Below, one piece after another: positions 1,417-32,000 of a DNA stretch of 32,000 nt. The notes under the pieces are model-generated. The model made no database searches and was not told the DNA's origin. It saw only the letters and a list, made by a program, of their open reading frames with translations. Made by a program: the position numbers and the translations under genes. Position 1 is the stretch's first letter. Every line of letters starts with the position of its first letter. The DNA comes from Candidatus Nanopusillus sp. GTDB lineage: Archaea > Nanobdellota > Nanobdellia > Nanobdellales > Nanobdellaceae. The stretch is taken from NCBI GenBank assembly GCA_046533775.1, contig JAWDOO010000002.1, forward strand, positions 71,127 to 103,126, in the 5' to 3' direction.

Positions 1417-2808
1417 ATGGGTATAATGTTAAATAATTTAATTAAGTTCTATCAAAATAATAAAGAAATTTTAGAAGATATGGTAAAAATTTCACAGAAT
1501 AGAGAAGTTGGATATTTATTATCAAATAATAATTTTGGACATAGACCATCAAAAATAGAGACAGAAGATGATATAATAAATTATATTAAAAAAGGTGCTA
1601 TTTCATTTCATATATCAATTGAGAGATGGATTGATCTAAATATTTTGAGTGAAAAAGTTTCAAAAAAAGATTTGAATGAATATAGATTGGGATGGGATTT
1701 CATAATAGATATAGATGCAAAATCTTTGGATCTATCAAAGGTTACTGCAAGAGTTATTTTTGATTATTTAAAAGAAAAAAATATTAATCCAATATATATT
1801 AAATATTCTGGGGGAAAAGGTTTTCATATAGCAATTCCTTGGGAAATATTTCCAGAAACAATAAATATATATAAAAAAGATAATTTTGTAGAAGAAGAGA
1901 CAAGGAAATTATTCCCAGATCTTGCAAGGATATTGGCATTATATATATCAAAAGAAATAGAAGAGAAATTAAAGAAAATAATATTATTAAAATTTAGTGA
2001 AGATGAATTGAAAAAATATGGTATAAATGATATAGAAAGATTTAATCCATATGATATAATTGAAATAGATACAATATTAATATCATCAAGACATTTAATT
2101 AGATGTTTATATTCAATAAATGAGAAAACAGGAAATTTATCTATACCAATAAAGGAAAATTATATAGAAAAATTAAATCCTGAAGATTCTAATATAAATA
2201 ATTATTCATATGAAGGTATACCATATTTAACTGAAGATTTAGAAAGAAAAGAATCTAAAGAATTAAAAAAGCTAATTAACGATTCATTATTATGGAAAAT
2301 AAAAAATGAATTTGAAGTAATAAAATTTAGCAGATTGGCAGAAAATTATAAAAATCAGGAAGAAATTGAAGAAGCAAAGAAGGATGTAGAAGAAATAAAG
2401 AAAAGAAAGATAGAAATAAATGAAGATTTATTCCCTCCATGTATAAAAAATATATTAAATAATAAAGAAATGGATGATGGAAGGAAAAGATCCTTATTTA
2501 TATTAATAAATTTCTTTGCAAATATTGGATGGAATTGGGATAAAATTGAAAAATATATAAAAGAATGGAATGAAAGTTTACAGGATCCTTTAAAAGATAG
2601 ATATATAGAATATCAATTAGAATGGCATAAGAAATTATATAAAAATAATAAAAAATATTTAACCCCAAATTGCAATAATGAAATATATTATAAGGATATT
2701 GGAATATGTACTCCAGATAATATTTGCTCATTAATTAAAAATCCTTTATCATATCCAATTAAAAAAATTAAAAGTACAAAATCTTCTCAGGATTCTCAAA
2801 ATAATTAA
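1417..2808 (+). CDS. Single-chain archaeo-eukaryotic DNA primase (PriS catalytic domain fused to a PriL-CTD-like Fe-S domain)
   Basis: The N-terminal half has AEP motifs: WDFIIDIDAK (DxD) and YSGGKGFHIAIPW (SGxxGxH). The C-terminal ~130 aa has FPPCIKNIL plus PNC, GIC and NIC, giving four Cys arranged as in the PriL C-terminal 4Fe-4S domain. Confidence 0.8.
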   Translation: MGIMLNNLIKFYQNNKEILEDMVKISQNREVGYLLSNNNFGHRPSKIETEDDIINYIKKGAISFHISIERWIDLNILSEKVSKKDLNEYRLGWDFIIDIDAKSLDLSKVTARVIFDYLKEKNINPIYIKYSGGKGFHIAIPWEIFPETINIYKKDNFVEEETRKLFPDLARILALYISKEIEEKLKKIILLKFSEDELKKYGINDIERFNPYDIIEIDTILISSRHLIRCLYSINEKTGNLSIPIKENYIEKLNPEDSNINNYSYEGIPYLTEDLERKESKELKKLINDSLLWKIKNEFEVIKFSRLAENYKNQEEIEEAKKDVEEIKKRKIEINEDLFPPCIKNILNNKEMDDGRKRSLFILINFFANIGWNWDKIEKYIKEWNESLQDPLKDRYIEYQLEWHKKLYKNNKKYLTPNCNNEIYYKDIGICTPDNICSLIKNPLSYPIKKIKSTKSSQDSQNN

Positions 2809-9808: not shown

Positions 9809-9922
9809 GTCGGGCGGCTTCCGTGCTTTCCCGGCCATTGCCAGTACTCACACGGACGTGGGCCGGCTTAACTTCCGTGTTCGAAATGGGTACGGGTGTT
9901 TCCCGGCCACTTTGGCCGCCCT
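9809..9922 (-). rRNA. rrf: 5S ribosomal RNA
   Basis: GC-rich island in AT-rich DNA. The reverse strand reads AGGGCGGCCAAAGUGGCCGGGAAACACCCGUACCCAUUUCGAACACGGAAGUUAAGCC...GAGUACUGG...GCCGCCCGAC. It has the conserved CGAACACGGAAGUUAAGC and AGUACUGG blocks, and helix I pairs GGGCGGC with GCCGCCC. Confidence 0.9.
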
Positions 9923-9948
9923 AAAATTATCTTTAAAATAAATGTTTT

Positions 9949-12584: not shown

Positions 12585-13688
12585 ATGAGTTATAATTTAT
12601 ATATATCAAATAGTAGTGCTCTTAGCATATTAATAACTTTTTTAGTTATTAATATAATATTTATATTTTTAAAAATTTTTAAAAAAGAAAACACAGATTA
12701 TAAATTTATTTATGGAATGTTCAGGACAAAAAAATTAATAGAAATAATGAAAAAAATCTCTAATACAAAATTTTCAAAATTTTTATCAATATCATCATTA
12801 ATTTTGGGTCCTATATTAATAACTTTAGCAGTTTTCTTCTTATTTTTTGGAATTTTAACAAAAACCCCAACATATGCCCCAGCATTGCCTGGTATATCAT
12901 ATGGTCCTATAACATTGCCTGTAATACAAACAATAATTTCAATCTTTATAGCAGCTTTTATACATGAATTTGCTCATGGTATTTTAGTATATAAAAATAA
13001 TCTAGATTTAAAATCTTGGGGATTCTTTTATTTAGGACCTTTAATAGGTGCCTTTGTAGAACCAGATGAGAAAGAAATTGAAAAATTAAATAAAAAAGAA
13101 CAAATAAAGATATATAGCGCTGGTGCTGCTATAAATATAATTGCTGGATTAATTTTTTTATTTTTATTTTTATTTTCTTTATATATAATTTCTATATTTA
13201 ATCTAGTAACACCATATGTAAAAATATTATACACCCTACCAAATACATATGCATATAATGTTATCCCAAATAATACAATTTTATATTCTATTAATGGAAA
13301 TCAAATATTATACTTAAATCAAATTGAAGGGATTTTAAATAATACCAAACCTGGAGAATATATTTTATTAAATACAAGTGCTGGATTATTTAATATTGAA
13401 CTAACTAATAAAGATGGCAAACCATTTATAGGAATTGTAGTTGAACAAGAATATAATTATAAAATTCCTGGAATTGATTTTATTGAATCATTATTATTCT
13501 GGTTATTTGTAATAAATGTTGGACTTGGTATAGGTAATATGATACCAATATATCCTTTAGATGGGGGTAAAACTATGAAATCTATATTGGAAATATTTTT
13601 AGATAAAAAAGAGTCCAGAATAATTTCTTTATCTTTATCAATAATATTATTAGCCCTAATATTATATAATATATCGTTTATTCTCTAG
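12585..13688 (+). CDS. Site-2 protease family (M50) membrane metalloprotease with an inserted PDZ-like region
   Basis: HEFAHG (HExxH) in a TM helix, NMIPIYPLDGG (NxxPxxxLDG) in a later TM, and a soluble segment between them. Confidence 0.85.
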   Translation: MSYNLYISNSSALSILITFLVINIIFIFLKIFKKENTDYKFIYGMFRTKKLIEIMKKISNTKFSKFLSISSLILGPILITLAVFFLFFGILTKTPTYAPALPGISYGPITLPVIQTIISIFIAAFIHEFAHGILVYKNNLDLKSWGFFYLGPLIGAFVEPDEKEIEKLNKKEQIKIYSAGAAINIIAGLIFLFLFLFSLYIISIFNLVTPYVKILYTLPNTYAYNVIPNNTILYSINGNQILYLNQIEGILNNTKPGEYILLNTSAGLFNIELTNKDGKPFIGIVVEQEYNYKIPGIDFIESLLFWLFVINVGLGIGNMIPIYPLDGGKTMKSILEIFLDKKESRIISLSLSIILLALILYNISFIL

Positions 13689-14250
13689 AAACTTTTCTCA
13701 TAAATATTTTATCTGTTAATAAATTATATATATCTCCAACATAATCTACTTTTCTTCTTATATCATAATTTTTAAATTCCATATACAACATATTTTTATA
13801 TATTTCATATATAATTTCCCTAGCTTTTTCTGCAAACTCTAAATTATTCTTTAACATTTCTTCTATTGATTTTCTATATAATTCTCCAACAAAATCCATC
13901 AATCCCATAACATATGAATACTCATCAACATTTAATTCATCATTCTTTGGTATTCTATTATTTAATATAAAATTATAGAATATTTTTGCTTCCGCATATT
14001 CCTGATAATTTATTAAAGCATTATTATATAATCTTGGTTCTTCTCTCACAATTTTATCTATTTCTTCTTTATATTTATCCATTTCAACCATGTATTCATT
14101 TGCAGATTTTATATCACCTCTTATTACTGAATATATTATTGATTTTGATGTTCTATTTAATTTTACTCCCAATTCAACTATTTTATCTTTTTTATTTTCA
14201 AATTCTTTAAATTTTTCTTTTAGATTTTCTATATATTCCTTTTCTATCAT
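13678..14250 (-). CDS. Translin-family protein (predicted nucleic-acid binding)
   Basis: 190 aa, all helical. The YSYVMGLMDFVGELYRKSIE block resembles the translin GL.D..GEL.R core, and the length and architecture match archaeal translin-like proteins. Confidence 0.55.
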   Translation of the reverse strand: MIEKEYIENLKEKFKEFENKKDKIVELGVKLNRTSKSIIYSVIRGDIKSANEYMVEMDKYKEEIDKIVREEPRLYNNALINYQEYAEAKIFYNFILNNRIPKNDELNVDEYSYVMGLMDFVGELYRKSIEEMLKNNLEFAEKAREIIYEIYKNMLYMEFKNYDIRRKVDYVGDIYNLLTDKIFMRKVSRE

Positions 14251-16528: not shown

Positions 16529-16560
16529 TTATCAAATATCAAAATTAATTATATAAATAT

Positions 16561-16644
16561 GCCGCGGTGCCCGAGCGGACAAAGGGGTATGGCTCGAGAC
16601 CATATCCCCGAAAGGGGGCGTGGGTTCAAATCCCACCCGCGGCG
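16561..16644 (+). tRNA. tRNA-Ser (anticodon CGA), type II with long variable arm, no encoded CCA, no intron
   Basis: Hand-folded: acceptor GCCGCGG/CCGCGGC, anticodon stem UAUGG/CCAUA with loop CUCGAGA, variable stem CCCC-GAAA-GGGG, and T arm GUGGG-UUCAAAU-CCCAC. Confidence 0.9.
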
Positions 16645-16674
16645 TTTATAAAAATTTAAATTCAAAAATATGAA

Positions 16675-17857: not shown

Positions 17858-19540
17858 ATGCAAAACATAAAAATTGATGATTTAAGGAATGAAAATATTG
17901 AGGATAATAAACATAAAATATTAGAAATAAAACTTATATTAGATAATCCAAATATAAAAATGGAACAAATATATTTTTGGCTTGTAGATTTTATTAGAGA
18001 TAGTTTAAAAATGGATATTAATAAATTATCAGATGATTTTACATCATCTGTTGCATCTTCATTTTTTGGAGAGATGGGTCAAAGATTATCAAATGTATTA
18101 AATAATGCAAGATCATTGGCAGAATTAATTAATGCATTGACAAGAACAATTATTTCTATTTTAAATGAATATAAACAGCTTTATTCAATATATGTTTTAT
18201 ACGAAAATTTATTATCAAAAAATAAAGAAGAAGCTATTGCAAGTTATACAGAATTAAAAGATAGATGGTTATCTTATGTTGATTCTACAAGGGGTGCAGG
18301 TGCTTTAAGGAATTTACAAACATCAAGGTTTCCAAGTATTGTAGATCTATTTTTTCTAGCAGAGCTAAAATCTGAATTAGAAAAACTTAAGAATAAAAAA
18401 TTAATAGGAGAAGAATTATATAATGAATTATTTAATAATCAAGAAAATACTGTTCCAAGAGATTTAAATGAATTATTTAATAATGGGATAATAAATAGAA
18501 GAATATATAATTTATTAAATAGTAGATTAATAGATTTTTATAGTTGGCTTGAAAATAATAAAAAAGTTTTATATGATAGAATAATTTTATTAAAATCTTA
18601 TTTAAAACATGAATTAAGCTCATTATTATATTATGTTGAATTTGCAAAACCATATTTTAAATTTGCAAGAAAATTATTACAAAGTCCTGATCAACCTGTA
18701 GATGTTGTAAATGCATTTGAAACAGCAATTATAAATATTTCATTAATAGCAAATCAAAATGAGATAAAAGTAAAAGAATATAACGAAAAAGAAGGAAAAG
18801 AAATAGAAAAGTCTTATATACCATTATATGAAATTGATATGAAAGCAAGAGCAATACCCACTGTAGTTGGAAGAACAGATTCATATACAAGAATGTATTC
18901 TTTCTTAGGAAGGATTGATATAGTACTTAGAGCATATTTAGTTGAAAAAGAAGAATATGATTCAATAATAATAAATCAGGAAAGTGAAGATTTAACATAT
19001 ATAACTGGATTAACAGATGATTATATAAAAAGTATGTCTGATTTAATTTTAGAAACATTTTTATATGATATAATAAAAAGTGATGAAAATTTATTAAAAA
19101 TAGTTGCTGAAAAATCTAATGTAAAACCAGAAGAAATAAAAAATGACCCTTATAAAATAAGATGGACAAGGGAACTTTTAGAAGAATTAGAAAAAGATGA
19201 AAAAATAAAAAGAGCATTATCAAGTATTACATGGATAAAAAAATATCTTGAAAGTGAAAAAAAAGAGAAAAAAGAAGATAAAAAGGAGGAAAAGAAAGAA
19301 GAAAAAAAAGAATCAAGTATTTCATTAATATTCCCAAATTTAGGAAATATTATAATATGGTTACTTAAATTTATATCAACTTTTGGCAAAGATATCACAA
19401 GTATTGAAAAAAATATAAAAAAGAAAAATATTGAAGAGGAAAAAAAATCAATAATTGATGAAACAAAAGAAAAGACAATAGATACTGCATGGAAAATATA
19501 TATGACATTTAAAAAGACATTCGGTATGTTAAATTATTAA
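17858..19540 (+). CDS. Large orphan protein (560 aa), mostly helical, with a K/E run and a C-proximal hydrophobic segment
   Basis: Uninterrupted 1.7-kb ORF with no motif I recognise. ESEKKEKKEDKKEEKKEEKKE is followed by SSISLIFPNLGNIIIWLLKFISTFG and then another charged helix. The next gene starts 24 bp downstream on the same strand. Confidence 0.65.
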   Translation: MQNIKIDDLRNENIEDNKHKILEIKLILDNPNIKMEQIYFWLVDFIRDSLKMDINKLSDDFTSSVASSFFGEMGQRLSNVLNNARSLAELINALTRTIISILNEYKQLYSIYVLYENLLSKNKEEAIASYTELKDRWLSYVDSTRGAGALRNLQTSRFPSIVDLFFLAELKSELEKLKNKKLIGEELYNELFNNQENTVPRDLNELFNNGIINRRIYNLLNSRLIDFYSWLENNKKVLYDRIILLKSYLKHELSSLLYYVEFAKPYFKFARKLLQSPDQPVDVVNAFETAIINISLIANQNEIKVKEYNEKEGKEIEKSYIPLYEIDMKARAIPTVVGRTDSYTRMYSFLGRIDIVLRAYLVEKEEYDSIIINQESEDLTYITGLTDDYIKSMSDLILETFLYDIIKSDENLLKIVAEKSNVKPEEIKNDPYKIRWTRELLEELEKDEKIKRALSSITWIKKYLESEKKEKKEDKKEEKKEEKKESSISLIFPNLGNIIIWLLKFISTFGKDITSIEKNIKKKNIEEEKKSIIDETKEKTIDTAWKIYMTFKKTFGMLNY

Positions 19541-19564: not shown

Positions 19565-21619
19565 ATGGATAATGAAGATAAAAAATATCCAAAAGAATTA
19601 TATAATAGAAGGATATCTACTAGCACAAGTCCTCAAAACGTAAATCAATTACAAGAATATTTATCAAAAATATCTGCTGGATATCCTGGAGTAGAAATAC
19701 AAACATTTAATTTTTCCGGACAATGGTCAAGAATACCAAGGCAAATATTTGAAGAAATTGCAAGAAATGCTAAGATAAATAATGTAGAAGTTACAATTCA
19801 TGCTCCTGAACAAGATTTTCAATTACCTGCGACAGATCAAAAATTGAATATAGAAGAAAATAATATAAAACAAATGGCCTATAAAGCATCAGTAATATTG
19901 GAGAGTGCAGAGATAATGTCAAAAATTTATGGAGAACCAATTAAAGTAAACATGCATGCCGGGGATGTTGCGCTAACAGAATGGGATGAAGATTTTGAAA
20001 GGAGATTAAAAGATGAATTATTAAAGAATGAAGAATTTAGAAAATCTTTTGCAGAAAAATTATATAGATTGGGATATATAACGTCAGAACAATATGGTAT
20101 ATTAACTAGTAAAAATATTGATAGAGAAACATTGGAAAAGAATGTACCATCATGGGCTTTTGCAAAACAGGAAGCCGCATATATTCATTTAAATGGAAAT
20201 TACGAATATATGGGATCTGTTATGCCTGGAAGATATTTATCTGGTGCTGTAGAAAGGGCAAGAAAACTTAATGTTGTTGATGAAATTTATAAAGAAAATG
20301 AAAAAGTTTGGATGAATATATTTAATGATATTGATAAGGATTTTAATGCAATAAAAAGATTATTAAATAACAATTACTTAATAACCTATTTTGGATATAG
20401 TACTGTAGATCAGGAAAAAATAGGAGAATTTTTATACGATCTAAAAAGATATAGATCATTTTTAGAAAAAGTAAAAGAATATATTGATACAATAGAGGAT
20501 AATATAAATGATATTGCAGATGAAAATTTAAGAAATGCCGCAAAAAATAGGATATCACAATATAAACAATATCTTGAAGAAAACTTGAAGAATATAGAAA
20601 ATTATGAATATGAAATATCAAAATTTGCAAAAGAAGTTGTACAAAACAATAATAGTCCTACATATAGAGACTATTTTAGGGATAAAATGTTTGATTTTAT
20701 AAATAATATAAGTTCATCTATAACAAACACAGATCATTTATTGTCCCAACTAAAAAATACGGTATTTTCAGAATTTCCAATCCCAATTGTAAAACCATAT
20801 CAAGAAGTTGCAACAAAAACAGCTCCAGAAGTAATAGCTGAAGGAGTTAGAATGCTAATTGAAAGGGAAATAAGTAGAAATCCAAATGAATGGTATAAGG
20901 ATTTTGATAAATATTTAAGTTATATAAATATTGAAGAATCATATCCTGGAGCACCCGCTACAAGACCAGATATATGGAAGAAATTATTAAATAATATAAG
21001 GGAAGAAGTAAAAAAAGTAATAGAAGAATATATGGAAAAATATCCTCAATTAAAAGATGAAATTGAGAAAAAATATGGTAGTGTAGATAATTTTGTTAAA
21101 GAAAGAATAGGAGCTACATTAGATGTTGGACATATAAAAATGTTTGAAAAATATGGATATAAGAAAGAAGATATATTAAAATGGGTTGAGGAAATTAAAC
21201 CAGAAATTAGGCATTTACATGTCCATGAATCACAAGCTGGAGAAGATACACATTTAGCATTAGGAATGGGATGGGATGACATTATTGCATCAGAATTAGA
21301 AAAACTTAGAGATATATTGGAGAATAAAAAAGTAACAATTGTACATGAGCCTGGTGGATATTATGCTAATAAATTTAATACAATGTATGGAAATGAATAT
21401 TATAATTTATTAGCAGGTGCTGGACCTTATAATATATATGGAAATATTATAAACCAATTTAATACAATGTTACCATATGGAGGAACACAAGTTATTCCAG
21501 AATATGTTCAATATACAAGATATTCTCCATATTCTATTTCAATATTCTCACAATTACCAATAGATCTTGGAGGAACAAGTAAAAGACAAGAAACATTTTC
21601 TGGAGAAAAAGCTGATTAA
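19565..21619 (+). CDS. Endonuclease IV / xylose-isomerase-like TIM-barrel protein with a ~300-aa internal helical insertion and a Y/N/G-rich tail
   Basis: Candidate ligand series in order: TIHAP (H79), NMHAG (H131), NIEESYPG (E457), LDVGH (D520, H523), HLHVHE (H550/552), GEDTH (D561, H563) and VHEPGG (E595). Residues ~140-450 are coiled-coil-like. Confidence 0.6.
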   Translation: MDNEDKKYPKELYNRRISTSTSPQNVNQLQEYLSKISAGYPGVEIQTFNFSGQWSRIPRQIFEEIARNAKINNVEVTIHAPEQDFQLPATDQKLNIEENNIKQMAYKASVILESAEIMSKIYGEPIKVNMHAGDVALTEWDEDFERRLKDELLKNEEFRKSFAEKLYRLGYITSEQYGILTSKNIDRETLEKNVPSWAFAKQEAAYIHLNGNYEYMGSVMPGRYLSGAVERARKLNVVDEIYKENEKVWMNIFNDIDKDFNAIKRLLNNNYLITYFGYSTVDQEKIGEFLYDLKRYRSFLEKVKEYIDTIEDNINDIADENLRNAAKNRISQYKQYLEENLKNIENYEYEISKFAKEVVQNNNSPTYRDYFRDKMFDFINNISSSITNTDHLLSQLKNTVFSEFPIPIVKPYQEVATKTAPEVIAEGVRMLIEREISRNPNEWYKDFDKYLSYINIEESYPGAPATRPDIWKKLLNNIREEVKKVIEEYMEKYPQLKDEIEKKYGSVDNFVKERIGATLDVGHIKMFEKYGYKKEDILKWVEEIKPEIRHLHVHESQAGEDTHLALGMGWDDIIASELEKLRDILENKKVTIVHEPGGYYANKFNTMYGNEYYNLLAGAGPYNIYGNIINQFNTMLPYGGTQVIPEYVQYTRYSPYSISIFSQLPIDLGGTSKRQETFSGEKAD

Positions 21620-24521: not shown

Positions 24522-24593
24522 GGGCCCGTAGTCTAGTGGTAGGATTCTGGCCTCGCTAGCCAGAGGTCCCGGGTTCAAATCCCGGCGGGTCCA
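24522..24593 (+). tRNA. tRNA-Ala (anticodon CGC), no encoded CCA, no intron
   Basis: Hand-folded: acceptor GGGCCCG/CGGGUCC including the G3:U70 alanine identity pair, anticodon stem CUGGC/GCCAG with loop CUCGCUA, and T arm CCGGG-UUCAAAU-CCCGG. Confidence 0.9.
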
Positions 24594-26401: not shown

Positions 26402-27106
26402 ATGACCGAAAAACTTTTCTGGCAAGATCAATATTTAAAGGAATTTGAAGGAAAAGTTATTGAAATTAGAGGAAGAGAAGTTATTTTAGATAGAACCGTA
26501 TTTTATGCTAGAAGTGGAGGTCAACCAGGAGATACTGGGGAAATAAATGGAATAAAAGTAATAGATACATATTATGACGATGAAGGGAACATTGTACATT
26601 TATTAGAAAAAGAACCAAATTTTAAAGTCGGTGATATTGTTAAAGGAAAAATAGATTGGGAGAGAAGATATAAATTAATGAGATTGCATACAGCTTTGCA
26701 TATATTATCTGCAGTATTAAATAATATGTTTGGTAATGTAAAAATTACTGGTAGCCAAATATATGAAGATAAAGCAAGAATAGATTTTAATTTAGATAAA
26801 TTAGATGATGAATTAGTAAAAAAGATTGAAGAAAAAGCAAATGAGATTGTTAATAAAGATTTACCAGTATATGCAAAATTTATAAATAAAGAAGAACTTG
26901 AAAAGATGCCTCAATTAAAAAGATTAATGGATGAAAAAAGATATGAAAAATATGATGTTTTAAGAGTAGTTGGTATTGGAGATATTGATATACAATTAGA
27001 TGGCGGAACACATGTAAAATCTACAAAAGAAGTGGGAAAAATAAAAATTATTGGAAGAGAAAATAAAGGTAGAAACAATAAAAGATTAATTATTACTGTT
27101 GAATAA
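26402..27106 (+). CDS. alaX: Alanyl-tRNA editing protein AlaX-like (Thr/Ala-tRNA synthetase second additional domain)
   Basis: FWQDQYLKEFEGKVIEI...LDRTVFYARSGGQPGDTG (N-terminal barrel), HTALHIL (HxxxH), and LDGGTHVKSTKEVG (normally CxxxH; here Asp replaces Cys). Confidence 0.8.
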   Translation: MTEKLFWQDQYLKEFEGKVIEIRGREVILDRTVFYARSGGQPGDTGEINGIKVIDTYYDDEGNIVHLLEKEPNFKVGDIVKGKIDWERRYKLMRLHTALHILSAVLNNMFGNVKITGSQIYEDKARIDFNLDKLDDELVKKIEEKANEIVNKDLPVYAKFINKEELEKMPQLKRLMDEKRYEKYDVLRVVGIGDIDIQLDGGTHVKSTKEVGKIKIIGRENKGRNNKRLIITVE

Positions 27107-28537: not shown

Positions 28538-29587
28538 ATGGGTTTAGCAGAAATAAGGGAACTAATAAAACCTGTAATAAAGGAGGTTGACTTTTCATAT
28601 TTATCTGGAAAAGTTGTTGCATTGGATGCATTTAATGCTTTATATCAGTTCTTAGCTGCGATAAGACAACCTGATGGAACACCTTTAAAAGATTCAAAAG
28701 GAAGAATTACTTCACATTTATCAGGTTTATTTTATAGGACAAAGAATTTGATTGAATATGGGATAAAAGTAATTTATGTATTTGATGGTAAACATCCAGA
28801 ATTTAAGAAAAAGGAACAAGAATTAAGAGAAGAACAGAGAAAAAAGATGGAAGAAAAATATAAAAAAGCAATTGAAATGGGTATAAAAGGAGATTTAAAA
28901 AAATATGCAGAATTTACATCAAAATTAGAATTTAATATGGTAGATGAATCAAAAGAATTATTAGAAGCAATGGGAATTCCATATGTACAAGCACCTTCTG
29001 AAGGAGAAGCACAGGCTGCATATTTAGTTAAAAAGGGAATTGCAGATTATGTTGGATCACAAGATTATGATTCATTATTGTTTGGAGGATTAAGAGTTGC
29101 AAGAAATTTAACAATAAGTGGGAAAAGAAGAGTAAAAGGAGTAGAAGTTGATATAAATCCAGAAATTGCTGAATTAAATGATATATTAAATTATTTAAAA
29201 TTAGATTATAAAAAATTAATATGGTTTGCTTTAATTGTTGGAACAGATTATAATCCTGATGGAATTCCTGGAATTGGAGTAAAAACTGCATACGAACTTG
29301 TAAAAAATAATAATGATCCTGAAAAATTGTTTAAATATGTTGGATGGGAGAAATATTATAAAGAAATTTCATGGAAAGAACTTGAAGAATTCTTTGAAGA
29401 TCCACCAGTAATTGAAATAAATAAAGAAGACATAAAATTTGGAGAAGTTAATGAAGAAAAAATAAGAAAAATATTGATTGATGAACATGATTTTTCAGAG
29501 GATAGAGTAAATAAAGCTATTGAAGAATTAAAGAATGCATATAAGAAAGGTAGTCAAAAAAATATATTATCTTTTTTTGGAAAATAG
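28538..29587 (+). CDS. fen: Flap endonuclease 1 (FEN1)
   Basis: 349 aa with ALDAFNALYQFL, ITSHLSGLFYRT, VIYVFDGKHPEFK, YVQAPSEGEAQAAYL and GTDYNPDGIPGIGVKTA. The C-terminal PIP box is QKNILSFF. Confidence 0.95.
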   Translation: MGLAEIRELIKPVIKEVDFSYLSGKVVALDAFNALYQFLAAIRQPDGTPLKDSKGRITSHLSGLFYRTKNLIEYGIKVIYVFDGKHPEFKKKEQELREEQRKKMEEKYKKAIEMGIKGDLKKYAEFTSKLEFNMVDESKELLEAMGIPYVQAPSEGEAQAAYLVKKGIADYVGSQDYDSLLFGGLRVARNLTISGKRRVKGVEVDINPEIAELNDILNYLKLDYKKLIWFALIVGTDYNPDGIPGIGVKTAYELVKNNNDPEKLFKYVGWEKYYKEISWKELEEFFEDPPVIEINKEDIKFGEVNEEKIRKILIDEHDFSEDRVNKAIEELKNAYKKGSQKNILSFFGK

Positions 29588-29638
29588 TCAGGATGGGTAA
29601 AATTCATCATCTTTCAGTATAATTTTTTCATCATACAT
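29584..29638 (-). ncRNA. C/D-box sRNA in the 43-bp gap between convergent fen and the phosphorylase gene; its C box contains the phosphorylase stop codon
   Basis: Read on the minus strand: C AUGAUGA 29634-29628, 10-nt guide aaaaauuaua, D' CUGA 29617-29614 and loop aag. Then C' AUGAUGA 29610-29604, 12-nt guide auuuuacccauc 29603-29592 and D CUGA 29591-29588. Confidence 0.75.
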
Positions 29639-31232
29639 ATGCTTTACTAATATATTCTTCAAAACATCTATAAGTATTAAATATTGGACCTATTGTTCTT
29701 ATTGCATTTAATGATACATCTATATATTTATCATAATTATTTCTATATATATTTAATACATAATCTAACTTATTATAGAAATCTTCTACATCTTTATCAT
29801 CAGTATTTTTATTTATATCATAATTATTTTCTCCAAAGAACCATCCATTATAATCATCAATTATTATTTCTAAAGGTGATCCATCCCTTGAAAATAATGT
29901 AGGAGTACCATTTAATGCTGCTCTCATCCAAGAAGTACCTGAAGCTTCAAATGGTGGTCTTGGAATATGTAAAAATATATCTGAACCTGCTAAAATTGTC
30001 CTTTCTTGTTCATATCCTCTATTTAATATTAATCCAATTGGTGTATTTAATGTTGACATAATATCTAAAATCCATCTTATTGTATTTTTTACAAATTCAT
30101 CTTTTGGATGAAATGAACCAGATAATAAAAATTGTATTTTATATTTTTTATCTAATTCTTCAAATCTTTCCAATCTCCATAATAACATATGAAACCTTTT
30201 ATATTCAGTTAATCTTCTTTTTACAGAAATTATTATCCTGTCTTCTCTAAATTCTTTGTTTGAATATGAATTTACATTAATATAATCTATTAAATCTTTT
30301 CTTACAATATTTTTTACTTTTATAAATTCTTTTCTATTTATAGATTGAGCATATGCAAATTTTCCAGGTTCATTTCTCCATCCATTTAAGTATGTATCAT
30401 ATAAATATTCAATCTTTTTATTTATCCATCTTAAATGATATACTCCATTTGTCACATAATCTAACTTTTTATTATATACGCTTTCAGTAACTATTTTATG
30501 TTTATACGATACTGCATTTACAAATCCAGATAATTCAAATAATATTTTTGTTAATGATAATCTATTTGGAGATATATTTCTTATTTCTCCAGGAATATCA
30601 TAATACTTTTCTACTAAATTATAATCGAATGAATCATGACCTGCAATAATTGAATGTGTAGTAAATACAACCTTTTCTTTTACCTTATTTATATCCCTAT
30701 ATCTTTTATATAATTCTATTGCTAAAAAACCACCATGTGATTCATTTAAATGATATTTATCAATTTCTATTCCATAATTTTCAAAGAATTCCAATGCACC
30801 CAATCCTAATAATAAATCTTTTAATAATTTTTCTTCCTCATTTTCTTCATAATATAATCTTCCAGTTAATTTCCTTATATCTGGATCATTCTCTTGTAAA
30901 TCTGTATCAAATAAAAATAATTTTGAATGAGATAATGGATATTGCCATACTTTAAAATATATTCTTTTATCTTTCAAATCTATATGGAATTTATCTTCTA
31001 TTTCTAAAAAATATTCCAATGGATCATAATTTTCTTCTTCATATATTATTTCTTTATTTTTTATTTCATATTTTCCATATCCATTTTTATTTACAAATGT
31101 TACACCATATATTGGATATTTTAAATCATTTGATGAATAAAATAAATCTCCAGCCAAAATTCCCAATCCTCCAGCATATGTTGGTAATTTATCAATTGCA
31201 AATTCTTGAGATATAAAAGCAACTTTCTTCAT
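29631..31232 (-). CDS. Alpha-glucan (glycogen) phosphorylase homologue, short archaeal GT35 form, with Arg at the PLP-lysine position
   Basis: ISQEFAIDKLPTYAGGLGILAGD, VFTTHSIIAGHDSF, NGVYHLRW and PPFEASGTSWMRAALNG. The family block is EASGTSxMK and the codon here is AGA. Confidence 0.75.
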   Translation of the reverse strand: MKKVAFISQEFAIDKLPTYAGGLGILAGDLFYSSNDLKYPIYGVTFVNKNGYGKYEIKNKEIIYEEENYDPLEYFLEIEDKFHIDLKDKRIYFKVWQYPLSHSKLFLFDTDLQENDPDIRKLTGRLYYEENEEEKLLKDLLLGLGALEFFENYGIEIDKYHLNESHGGFLAIELYKRYRDINKVKEKVVFTTHSIIAGHDSFDYNLVEKYYDIPGEIRNISPNRLSLTKILFELSGFVNAVSYKHKIVTESVYNKKLDYVTNGVYHLRWINKKIEYLYDTYLNGWRNEPGKFAYAQSINRKEFIKVKNIVRKDLIDYINVNSYSNKEFREDRIIISVKRRLTEYKRFHMLLWRLERFEELDKKYKIQFLLSGSFHPKDEFVKNTIRWILDIMSTLNTPIGLILNRGYEQERTILAGSDIFLHIPRPPFEASGTSWMRAALNGTPTLFSRDGSPLEIIIDDYNGWFFGENNYDINKNTDDKDVEDFYNKLDYVLNIYRNNYDKYIDVSLNAIRTIGPIFNTYRCFEEYISKAYV

Positions 31233-31292: not shown

Positions 31293-32000
31293 TTATAAAA
31301 TTTTCCAAATATCAAATTTTTCTTCAAAAAACTTTTCTAAATCGTTTATATTTACCCTTATTTGTTCTTTTGTATCCCTAAATCTTATTGTAACTGTATT
31401 ATCTTTTAATGTTTGATCATCTACTGTAATACAATAATATGTTCCAATTTCATCCTGTCTTTTATATCTTACACCAATCCTCCCAGAATCATCATAATAT
31501 GCATCAAATTTCTTTCTTAATTTATTATATATTTCTTTAGCTACTTTTACCATATTTTCATTATTTTCTAATAATGGAAATATTGCAATTTGAATTGGAG
31601 ATAAATAATCTGGTAATTTTAATATTGTTCCATCATAATTAATTAATAATAATGAAAATATATTTCTATCAACTCCAAAAGATAATTCTAATTCAACTGG
31701 AATAAATTTTGATCCATTTGGTCTAGTTAATATAAATCTTCTATCTTTTGATAATATAAAATGATTCCATAGATCATATCCAACATATATTTCATCTCCA
31801 ATAAATAAATTCTCAACATCCTTTCTTATTTCTTCATTAACTTTATTAATTATATCTCTATTAAATTTTAATACTCTAAAATGAATTCCTCCAACTTCTG
31901 TCCATCCAATTTCATCTAAATATATTTCTATATCAAAATGATACATATTATAGAAAGATTTTTCATTATCTGCTAATTGATAAAATCTTATCCTTTCCTT
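31293..32000 (-). CDS. glyS: Glycyl-tRNA synthetase (archaeal/eukaryal type), C-terminal part; gene continues past the right edge
   Basis: Anticodon-binding domain IAIFPLL...YYDDSGRIGVRYKRQDEIGTYYCITVDDQTLKDNTVTIRFRDTKEQIRV. The frame stays open upstream of the track Met (…KERIRFYQLADNEKSFYNMYHFDIE) to position 32000. Confidence 0.85.
   Translation of the reverse strand, partial: KERIRFYQLADNEKSFYNMYHFDIEIYLDEIGWTEVGGIHFRVLKFNRDIINKVNEEIRKDVENLFIGDEIYVGYDLWNHFILSKDRRFILTRPNGSKFIPVELELSFGVDRNIFSLLLINYDGTILKLPDYLSPIQIAIFPLLENNENMVKVAKEIYNKLRKKFDAYYDDSGRIGVRYKRQDEIGTYYCITVDDQTLKDNTVTIRFRDTKEQIRVNINDLEKFFEEKFDIWKIL

What the first reader, a model, noticed from the sequence alone, without database searches (positions are those of the whole stretch)
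19565..21619. Complete endonuclease-IV-type nine-ligand metal site split by a ~300-residue helical insertion in a 684-aa orphan protein
Seen in sequence: the protein carries TIHAP (H79), NMHAG (H131), NIEESYPG (E457), LDVGH (D520, H523), HLHVHE (H550/H552), GEDTH (D561, H563) and VHEPGG (E595). Established knowledge: E. coli endonuclease IV (AP endonuclease family 2 / xylose-isomerase-like TIM barrel) binds three metals through H69, H109, E145, D179, H182, H216, D229, H231 and E261. The order here is identical (H,H,E,D,H,H,D,H,E). Local spacings agree as well: D-x2-H, H to D about 11-13, D-x-H, H to E about 30. The exception is that H131 and E457 are 326 residues apart instead of about 36. The intervening block (about nt 19980-20915) is K/E/N-rich and heptad-like with no barrel features, and an ~85-aa Y/N/G-rich tail follows the barrel. 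A TIM-barrel nuclease or isomerase carrying a domain-sized coiled-coil insert between two strands is not an architecture I know for this family.
Basis: partly seen in the sequence, partly recalled or inferred. Interest (0 to 1): 0.75.

Follow-up and report, generated by a model that had tools for sequence, protein, structure and literature searches.

The report
Split endonuclease-IV-like barrel of Nanoarchaeota

Summary
ORF 19565-21619 (+) encodes a 684-aa protein with every listed motif at the stated position. A family profile with the insert removed aligns along the whole barrel of endonuclease IV (Nfo) at E 3.5e-5 (reversed control 0.09). All nine residues fall in the nine Nfo ligand columns; the H216 equivalent is H552, not H550.

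The protein is not an orphan. The organism is a Candidatus Nanopusillus. An exhaustive search found 296 cluster representatives, nearly all 590-710 aa. A genome scan found at least 512 species-level genomes, all of the 80 loci returned being Nanoarchaeota-type (Nanopusillaceae, Nanoclepta, Woese-/Pacearchaeota) or unclassified "archaeon". The H131-to-E457 gap is always 223-355 residues.

Six ligands are 100% conserved. The third-site ligands co-vary as a unit. AlphaFold places the insert in the loop between strand 4 and helix 4, on the catalytic face, as a hairpin plus long-helix bundle. The C-terminal tail is as conserved as the barrel.

The gene is paired with an upstream ~510-560-aa protein that matched no known family or structure. 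It is not a canonical Nfo: no nfo model hit, and Nfo's DNA-intercalating residues are absent.

Verdict: a new, uncharacterised clade of the AP-endonuclease-2 superfamily, most likely a three-metal phosphodiesterase. Substrate unknown.

The parts
19565..21619 (+). Whole gene: 684-aa split-barrel protein (identical to NCBI MAG protein RXQ68_01345, Candidatus Nanopusillus sp.)
19610..19987 (+). N-terminal half-barrel, residues 16-141 (strands beta1-beta4), carrying H79 (nt 19799-19801) and H131 (nt 19955-19957), the equivalents of the Nfo metal-1 ligands H69 and H109
   Evidence: AF2 strands 18-20, 42-46, 75-79 and 127-131. Pfam PF01261 profile positions 6-62. hhalign of the N-half alone against Nfo gives E 0.005. 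H79 and H131 are 143/143 conserved.
19988..20272 (+). Insert subdomain 1, residues 142-236: short helices plus a beta-hairpin (202-219). It is partly a Nanopusillaceae-specific elaboration.
   Evidence: AF2. Occupancy analysis: 147-159, 183-192 and 215-228 are mostly absent in distant members. Conservation is low, 0.72 bits.
20273..20776 (+). Insert subdomain 2, residues 237-404: four long helices (237-267, 283-314, 320-361, 365-403) predicted as a bundle. It contains the only near-invariant insert residues, N245 and W249.
   Evidence: AF2 pLDDT is mostly above 90. Foldseek matches helical bundles (8w6f_A, target TM-score 0.67). N245 and W249 are 97% conserved. It is present family-wide.
20777..21412 (+). 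C-terminal half-barrel, residues 405-616 (alpha4 to alpha8). It carries E457 (nt 20933-20935), D520 (21122-21124), H523 (21131-21133), H552 (21218-21220), D561 (21245-21247), H563 (21251-21253) and E595 (21347-21349).
   Evidence: AF2. Pfam profile positions 145-206. hhalign column mapping. Conservation and covariation.
21413..21616 (+). C-terminal tail, residues 617-684: Y/G/N-rich and not confidently modelled by AF2, but as conserved as the barrel. Motif: P645...F661-x2-L-P-x2-L-G-G...F-S/T-G.
   Evidence: pLDDT below 50. Conservation is 2.13 bits per column for 641-684, and P645, F661, P665 and G669 are at least 95% conserved.
17858..19540 (+). Conserved upstream partner gene ('fam2'), 560 aa, 24 nt upstream on the same strand. 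No known family. It is elongated, with long beta-hairpins and long helices.
   Evidence: A homologue lies upstream on the same strand in 49 of 68 loci with enough flank. It is adjacent in cultured Nanobdella and in strain YN1 by locus tags. There is no Pfam or PDB sequence hit. AF2 pLDDT is 85.9. There is no structural match in PDB or BFVD.

Best explanation
The gene encodes a metal-dependent phosphodiesterase from a previously undescribed, Nanoarchaeota-wide clade of the xylose-isomerase-like / AP-endonuclease-2 TIM-barrel superfamily. Its (beta/alpha)8 barrel keeps the complete endonuclease-IV-type three-metal centre. By analogy with Nfo, H79, H131 and E457 form metal site 1. E457, D520, H552 and E595 form site 2. 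H523, D561 and H563 form site 3. I therefore infer the Nfo chemistry: a metal-activated water attacks a phosphodiester held across the metal cluster. A roughly 230-290-residue module (beta-hairpin plus long-helix bundle) is inserted in the loop between strand 4 and helix 4. That loop lies on the catalytic face of the barrel, where Nfo's DNA-recognition loops sit. Nfo's DNA-wedging residues are missing. I therefore infer that substrate recognition has passed to the insert (invariant N245 and W249), to family-specific loop residues, and possibly to the conserved C-terminal tail. My committed guess for the substrate is a nucleic-acid phosphodiester or a blocked 3' end (incision or end-cleaning), recognised in a non-Nfo manner. 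The enzyme probably works with the conserved upstream protein fam2. Shown here: family membership, ligand columns, conservation and covariation, insert position, taxonomic spread and gene pairing. Inferred, not shown: metal content, hydrolytic activity, substrate, and physical interaction with fam2.
For: PF01261 scores above its gathering score in the window protein, in 6/6 insert-excised members and in 4/4 distant members. Profile-profile alignment to Nfo gives E 3.5e-5 over 247 columns, against 0.09 for the reversed control. Each half aligns co-linearly on its own. All nine ligands fall in the nine Nfo columns. In 143 representatives, H79, H131, E457, D520, H552 and E595 are 100% conserved and H523 is 98% conserved. 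The site-3 pair co-varies as (D,H) 102, (H,E) 29 and (H,D) 4. The three members with H523 changed to R are exactly those that lose the ligand at 561, which is the behaviour expected of one metal site as in Nfo. H79 and H131 have no counterpart among the E-D-H-E ligands of the sugar epimerases (established knowledge: D-tagatose 3-epimerase uses E152, D185, H211 and E246). The AF2 model (pLDDT 78.5, pTM 0.79) shows eight strand-helix units, with the insert between strand 127-131 and helix 412-438. The best barrel matches in Foldseek are clan members, including endonuclease IV 1xp3 at probability 0.99. The family occurs in at least 512 species genomes with very small gene sets, which argues for a maintained function. 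The superfamily has a precedent for phosphodiesterases beyond Nfo (CbiR, PMC7733943).
Against: No activity, metal or structural data exist. The nfo-specific NCBIfam model is not hit by any of 40 members, and my own Nfo HMM gives no hit. The weak NCBIfam hits go to FrlC-type epimerase (26/40), CbiR (9/40) and hydroxypyruvate isomerase (7/40), all far below their cutoffs. Nfo R37 and Y72 align to G52 and E82. Foldseek E-values are weak (at best 0.08), and the top hit is an epimerase. I had no model coordinates, so I could not check the geometry of the nine residues or where the insert sits relative to the site. The neighbouring genes give no pathway clue: fam2 has no known fold and the other neighbours are housekeeping genes. 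N. equitans has a conventional, abundant Nfo (PMC3149612), so the phylum does not obviously need a replacement.
Confidence: 0.5

Rival explanations
1. It is a three-metal phosphodiesterase acting on a substrate other than nucleic acid. Candidates are a cofactor, a nucleotide-sugar, or a phospholipid head group scavenged from the host. The insert would form a cap or binding pocket for a small or amphipathic ligand, and fam2 would act as a carrier or membrane-associated partner.
For: The catalytic-site evidence is the same as for the best explanation. CbiR shows that this superfamily includes a phosphodiesterase for a non-DNA substrate, and CbiR is the only phosphodiesterase model weakly hit (9/40 members). 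Nfo's DNA-wedging residues are absent. A large insert over the catalytic face is hard to reconcile with docking of duplex DNA. Nanoarchaeota depend on host-derived metabolites (general knowledge). fam2's very weak Foldseek hits include lipid-binding folds (JHBP, START, Ups1), at probability 0.25 or less.
Against: No cobamide, lipid or nucleotide-sugar genes are linked to it. The CbiR score of 23 bits is far below the cutoff of 105. The fam2 matches are statistically meaningless. No signal peptide or transmembrane segment was noticed by eye in the barrel protein; this was not tested with a predictor.
Confidence: 0.25
2. It is a sugar or sugar-phosphate isomerase/epimerase, as JGI's automatic annotation says. 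It would use the core E-D-H-E metal site, and the additional His and Asp residues would serve substrate binding or a structural metal.
For: JGI names several members 'sugar phosphate isomerase/epimerase'. NCBIfam's best weak hits are fructoselysine 3-epimerase (26/40, best E 1e-9) and hydroxypyruvate isomerase. The top Foldseek hit is D-tagatose 3-epimerase 2ou4. A glycogen-synthase/phosphorylase-like gene lies in the same window at 29631-31232.
Against: All those hits are far below the curated cutoffs and cover only the generic H-x-x-D...P-G-x-G region. H79 and H131 are 100% invariant, and H523/D561/H563 co-vary as a unit. That reproduces Nfo's metal sites 1 and 3, which the epimerases lack. 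No sugar-catabolic genes are linked.
Confidence: 0.12
3. It is the lineage's ordinary base-excision-repair AP endonuclease, a true functional Nfo. The insert would be a neutral or stabilising decoration.
For: It has the nine-ligand site. Nanobdella's record names it 'AP endonuclease'. No conventional nfo was found in the 0.85 Mb of Nanoarchaeota DNA examined, though that covers only the flanks of this gene.
Against: R37, Y72 and the other Nfo recognition features are not conserved. The nfo HMMs give no hit. The insert has been kept for the whole history of the phylum, has two invariant residues and sits on the DNA-binding face, so it is not neutral. N. equitans keeps a conventional Nfo. The 'AP endonuclease' name is most likely automatic annotation from the Pfam domain (my inference; not checked).
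Confidence: 0.1
4. It is a catalytically irrelevant scaffold: a structural or cytoskeletal protein that retains a relic barrel.
For: It has long helices, a tail that AF2 does not model, and an elongated partner protein.
Against: Relic sites do not keep six ligands at 100% and swap D/H for H/E in a compensatory way across 143 lineages.
Confidence: 0.03

Closest known systems
Endonuclease IV (Nfo / Apn1; COG0648, TIGR00587; PDB 1QTW, 1XP3)
   Same: It has the same (beta/alpha)8 barrel superfamily. All nine ligands of the trinuclear metal site occupy the same alignment columns in the same order. The local motifs are shared (HAP after strand 3, IEN at strand 5, D-x-x-H at strand 6, H-x-x-D then D-x-H...G-x-G after strand 7). 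The third-site residues behave as one unit.
   Different: It is 684 aa against about 285 aa. It carries an insert of about 260 residues in the beta4-alpha4 loop and a conserved tail of about 70 residues. The DNA-intercalating R37 and Y72 are replaced by G52 and E82. It does not hit nfo-specific HMMs. The relationship is detectable only by profile-profile comparison (E 3.5e-5). It is restricted to Nanoarchaeota and paired with an unknown partner gene.
CbiR, cobamide-remodelling phosphodiesterase (NF041277; Mok et al. 2020, PMC7733943)
   Same: It belongs to the same superfamily and is a metal-dependent phosphodiesterase. CbiR shows that the superfamily's chemistry is used on non-DNA phosphodiesters. 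There is a weak HMM similarity over residues 476-584 (23 bits).
   Different: The score is far below the cutoff of 105 bits. CbiR is about 250 aa with no insert. It is linked to cobamide genes, and no such linkage exists here.
Ketose 3-epimerases / sugar-phosphate isomerases (D-tagatose 3-epimerase 2OU4, FrlC, UlaE, hydroxypyruvate isomerase; COG1082)
   Same: It shares the barrel and the core E-D-H-E metal site. These give the best weak NCBIfam and Foldseek matches.
   Different: Those enzymes use one metal and lack the H69/H109-type and D229/H231-type ligands that are invariant or co-varying here. They have no insert and no conserved tail.

Membership tests
Xylose-isomerase-like TIM barrel / AP endonuclease 2 superfamily (Pfam PF01261) | Score at or above Pfam's gathering threshold (31.1 bits) | tested here: met
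   35.8 bits for the full protein, 38.2 bits with the insert excised and 6/6 members matching, and 33.9-44 bits in four distant members.
Xylose-isomerase-like TIM barrel / AP endonuclease 2 superfamily (Pfam PF01261) | (beta/alpha)8 barrel fold | tested here: inconclusive
Xylose-isomerase-like TIM barrel / AP endonuclease 2 superfamily (Pfam PF01261) | Core E-D-H-E metal ligands on strands 5, 6, 7 and 8 | tested here: met
   E457, D520, H552 and E595 are each conserved in 143/143 representatives.
Endonuclease IV (Nfo/Apn1) | Nine ligands of the trinuclear site (H69, H109, E145, D179, H182, H216, D229, H231, E261) in the corresponding columns | tested here: met
   The hhalign mapping gives nine of nine. 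102/143 representatives carry the strict set and 139/143 do so when D/E/H alternates are allowed at 561/563.
Endonuclease IV (Nfo/Apn1) | Recognition by the family-specific HMM (NCBIfam TIGR00587 nfo, or an Nfo HMM) | tested here: not met
   No nfo hit at E<=10 for the window protein or at E<=0.01 for 40 members. An HMM built from 11 Nfo sequences finds nothing in the window at E<=10 or in the 80 loci at E<=1.
Endonuclease IV (Nfo/Apn1) | DNA-wedging and flipping residues (E. coli R37, Y72 and L73 on the recognition loops) | tested here: not met
   R37 aligns to G52 and Y72 aligns to E82. L73 was not mapped. The loop after HAP has its own conserved motif instead (G89, E98, R101).
Endonuclease IV (Nfo/Apn1) | AP-endonuclease / 3'-diesterase activity with three bound Zn/Mn ions | not testable with these tools
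   This requires a recombinant enzyme assay and metal analysis.
Sugar-phosphate isomerase/epimerase (FrlC, UlaE, Hyi; COG1082) | Score at or above the curated NCBIfam cutoffs | tested here: not met
   PRK09856 scores 15.3 bits against a cutoff of 305 for the window protein. The best E among 40 members is 1e-9, which is still partial.
CbiR cobamide-remodelling phosphodiesterase | Score at or above 105 bits and linkage to cobamide biosynthesis genes | tested here: not met
   The score is 23.4 bits. The neighbours are fam2, SecY, aaRS genes, ribosomal proteins and similar.

The most novel reading that the evidence does not exclude
The split barrel and its invariant upstream partner fam2 (plus, in Woese-/Pacearchaeota, a small disordered acidic protein and a Pol-beta-type nucleotidyltransferase) form a Nanoarchaeota-specific two- to four-component machine. 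It would be built around an Nfo-type three-metal phosphodiesterase whose specificity has been redirected, by the catalytic-face helical domain and the conserved tail, to a substrate tied to the obligate symbiotic lifestyle. An example would be processing of host-derived nucleic acids, nucleotides or phospholipids. This would be a new enzyme function and a new protein fold (fam2) defining a whole phylum.
Probability: 0.2. Interest if true: 0.8.

Novelty: new variant of a known kind. Interest (0 to 1): 0.6.

Why it matters
Nanoarchaeota have some of the smallest cellular genomes known, so a 600-700-aa protein kept in at least 512 species is unlikely to be dispensable. Yet it is labelled only 'hypothetical', 'sugar phosphate isomerase/epimerase' or 'AP endonuclease' by automatic annotation. 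It shows that the endonuclease-IV three-metal centre has been reused in a very different architecture, with a domain inserted on the catalytic face. That makes it a natural test of how TIM-barrel enzymes change substrate while keeping their chemistry. Cultured hosts exist (Nanobdella aerobiophila, Nanopusillus acidilobi, strain YN1), so the prediction can be tested directly. Together with the partner fam2, which matched no known family or structure, it is a candidate signature system of the phylum.

Tried and rejected
1. A direct sequence search of the PDB found no barrel hit, either with the protein or with a 6-sequence insert-excised profile.
2. hhalign against a single E. coli Nfo sequence failed in both global and local modes. 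It worked only once an 11-sequence Nfo profile had been assembled from plasmid-borne genes.
4. The idea that the insert is a paralogue of fam2 was rejected: hhalign probability 0.1%.
5. A known anti-phage defence system was rejected: the two barrel proteins scanned (window protein and P0080), fam2 and one small ORF have no meaningful PADLOC hits. The NTase fam1 hits only generic NTase models. The locus is also a stable housekeeping neighbourhood.
6. fam2 gave nothing significant in Pfam, PDB sequence profile, Foldseek PDB or Foldseek BFVD.
7. Net charge and pI by region were uninformative. E. coli Nfo is itself acidic.
8. Literature searches on Nanoarchaeota endonuclease IV, DPANN TIM barrels and the locus tags found no description of this family.
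9. Whether N. equitans has this family could not be settled. It is absent from the 80 best loci, and the supplement text held is truncated.
Full report
**Observation.** The ORF at 19565-21619 (+) encodes 684 aa. The window has about 23% G+C. The protein is identical to a hypothetical protein of a Candidatus Nanopusillus sp. MAG. Pfam PF01261 (AP_endonuc_2, 'xylose isomerase-like TIM barrel') scores 35.8 bits against a gathering score of 31.1, in two stretches.

**Not an orphan.**
- The word-indexed search returned 64 proteins, all Nanopusillaceae where a source names the organism. They include Nanopusillus acidilobi Nps_03005, strain YN1 YN1_2300 and Nanobdella aerobiophila ('AP endonuclease', 47% identity). 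The full-length entries (a few are fragments) keep the insert and tail.
- The exhaustive HMM search of 1.84 billion cluster representatives found 296 proteins at E<=1e-3 and 183 at E<=1e-10. Almost all are 590-710 aa and match in two stretches, the N-half and C-half of the barrel.
The 80 best loci are labelled Nanopusillus, Nanobsidianus, Nanoclepta, Nanopusillaceae, Woesearchaeota, Pacearchaeota, Nanoarchaeota/Nanoarchaeia or simply 'archaeon'.
- In 143 full-length representatives the H131-to-E457 distance is 223-355 residues, median 267. The split is the family's constant architecture.

**Ligand-column test.**
- Direct PDB sequence searches and hhalign against a single Nfo sequence gave nothing.
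- I fetched E. coli nfo and ten diverse plasmid-borne 'deoxyribonuclease IV' genes and built a profile from them.
- I aligned that profile to the 143-member family profile with the columns for residues 142-404 removed. The result was probability 72% and E 3.5e-5 over 247 columns, covering query residues 16-607 and Nfo residues 3-274.
- The reversed Nfo profile gives E 0.09. The N-half and C-half each align co-linearly on their own, at E 0.005 and 8e-4.
- Parsing the alignment gives H79=H69, H131=H109, E457=E145, D520=D179, H523=H182, H552=H216, D561=D229, H563=H231 and E595=E261.
- Coarse mapping of both proteins onto PF01261 coordinates agrees.

**Conservation and covariation.**
- H79, H131, E457, D520, H552 and E595 are conserved in 143/143 representatives, and H523 in 140/143.
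- Positions 561/563 are (D,H) in 102, (H,E) in 29, (H,D) in 4, (D,E) in 3 and (E,H) in 1.
- Whenever 561 is His, 563 is a carboxylate. The three proteins with H523 changed to Arg are exactly the three with a non-ligand at 561 alongside Glu at 563 (a fourth representative has Pro at 561 but keeps H523 and H563).
- So H523, D561 and H563 are gained, swapped or lost together, as expected if they form one metal site like Nfo's third zinc site (H182/D229/H231; assignment from established knowledge, Hosfield et al. 1999).
- H79 and H131 have no counterpart in the single-metal E-D-H-E site of the ketose epimerases (established knowledge).

**Anatomy.**
- The AlphaFold2 model was built from a 33-sequence alignment (pLDDT 78.5, pTM 0.79). 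It has strands at 18-20, 42-46, 75-79, 127-131, 453-457, 515-520, 548-553 and 591-594, alternating with helices.
- The insert lies between strand 4 (ending at H131) and helix alpha4 (412-438). That is a beta-to-alpha loop, so it is on the catalytic face of the barrel.
- The insert comprises short helices and a hairpin (142-236) and four long helices (237-403) with pLDDT mostly above 90.
- In Foldseek the long-helix part matches compact helical bundles (8w6f_A, target TM-score 0.67). The barrel matches D-tagatose 3-epimerase, B. anthracis and S. aureus endonuclease IV, ASFV AP endonuclease and UlaE, but all at E>=0.08.
- Sequence conservation is 2.1 bits per column in both barrel halves and only 0.7-0.9 in the insert, apart from N245 and W249 at 97%. 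It is 2.1 bits in the last 44 residues of the tail, whose motif is P645, F661, L664-P665, L668-G669-G670, although AF2 cannot model the tail.
- Several short insert segments are specific to Nanopusillaceae.

**Why it is not a canonical Nfo.**
- No member hits NCBIfam's nfo model. The weak sub-threshold hits are FrlC-type epimerase (26/40), CbiR (9/40) and hydroxypyruvate isomerase (7/40).
- An HMM of my 11 Nfo sequences finds nothing in the window or in the 80 loci.
- Nfo's R37 and Y72 align to G52 and E82.
- N. equitans has a conventional 293-aa endonuclease IV that is abundant in its proteome (PMC3149612).
- CbiR shows that this superfamily also contains a non-DNA phosphodiesterase (PMC7733943).

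**Genomic context.**
- In the window the gene lies 24 nt downstream of a 560-aa ORF (17858-19540) and 32 nt upstream of secY.
- Across the 80 loci, a homologue of the 560-aa ORF ('fam2') is upstream on the same strand in 49 of the 68 loci with at least 1.5 kb of flank. It is directly adjacent in Nanopusillaceae and Nanoclepta. In 32 other loci it is separated by one small (158-297 aa), charged, poorly conserved ORF.
- A Pol-beta-type nucleotidyltransferase of about 286 aa ('fam1', PF01909) is immediately downstream in 48 of 75 loci. It is absent from this window and from the Nanopusillaceae loci.
- Other recurrent neighbours are housekeeping genes: PEP synthase, GluRS, L10e, L35Ae, signal peptidase II and a GTPase.
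- Gene order in cultured Nanobdella is the same as here.
- fam2 has no Pfam or PDB sequence match and all its 120 listed homologues are 'hypothetical'. It gives a confident AF2 model (pLDDT 85.9) with very long beta-hairpins and helices, but has no significant structural neighbour in the PDB or BFVD. It is unrelated to the insert. No PADLOC defence model fits.

**Interpretation.** The most economical reading is a three-metal phosphodiesterase with Nfo-type chemistry, in a separate, phylum-wide clade. Substrate recognition has been rebuilt around a catalytic-face helical domain and a conserved tail, and the enzyme probably works with fam2. I favour a nucleic-acid substrate recognised in a non-Nfo way (0.5). 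The rivals are:
- a non-nucleic-acid phosphodiester (0.25);
- a sugar isomerase/epimerase (0.12);
- a plain functional Nfo (0.1);
- an inert scaffold (0.03).

**Novelty and score.** No paper found describes the family. It is a new variant of a known kind: a known superfamily and a known metal centre in an undescribed architecture, with a new taxonomic distribution and gene partnership. Interest is 0.6. A specialist would find the conserved catalytic-face insertion, the phylum-wide retention in minimal genomes and the pairing with a protein of no recognisable fold notable. The prediction is directly testable in cultured strains, but the function remains inferred.

Noticed in passing
window 17858-19540 (+): A 560-aa protein ('fam2') is the conserved upstream partner of the split barrel across Nanoarchaeota. 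Its AF2 model is confident (pLDDT 86), with very long beta-hairpins and helices. It has no Pfam, PDB or BFVD match, so it may be a new fold. It has a K/E low-complexity linker (about 470-512) before a C-terminal helix.
   Followed up: yes
loci L012-L080, between the fam2 and barrel genes (e.g. L036:5381-5935): Outside Nanopusillaceae, a small (158-297 aa), charged, low-complexity, poorly conserved ORF sits between fam2 and the barrel gene in 32 loci, always on the same strand. Some copies end in an 'RRYPWE' motif.
   Followed up: partly
loci L014-L080, immediately downstream of the barrel gene (e.g. L069:7947-8807): A Pol-beta-type nucleotidyltransferase of about 286 aa (PF01909) follows the barrel gene in 48 of 75 loci in Woese-/Pacearchaeota. 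It is absent from this window. Nanobdella instead has a separate HEPN + minimal-NTase pair about 3 kb downstream (L092:11264-11964).
   Followed up: partly
window 1417-2808 (+): A single 463-aa ORF carries both the small-subunit and large-subunit DNA primase domains (PF01896 + PF04104), so it is a fused PriS-PriL primase.
   Followed up: no
window 26402-27106 (+): A 234-aa ORF contains only the C-terminal end of alanyl-tRNA synthetase (tRNA-synt_2c positions 473-552 plus tRNA_SAD). This looks like a split AlaRS gene fragment.
   Followed up: no
window 31293-31946 (-): A 217-aa ORF has only an HGTP_anticodon domain. It may be a stand-alone or split class II aaRS anticodon-binding module.
   Followed up: no
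window 9809-9923 (-): A 5S rRNA gene (Rfam 79.5 bits) stands alone, with no other rRNA gene in the 32-kb window. tRNA-Ser(CGA) lies at 16560-16645 and tRNA-Ala(CGC) at 24522-24593.
   Followed up: no
window 13678-14250 (-) and 28538-29587 (+): A Translin-family protein (PF01997) and a FEN1/XPG flap endonuclease are encoded in the same window. Neither is adjacent to the barrel gene.
   Followed up: no
(cluster members P0214, P0285): A partial barrel homologue is labelled 'Aquificaceae bacterium' and a fam2 homologue is labelled 'Patescibacteria group bacterium'. Both probably come from mis-binned Nanoarchaeota contigs.
   Followed up: no
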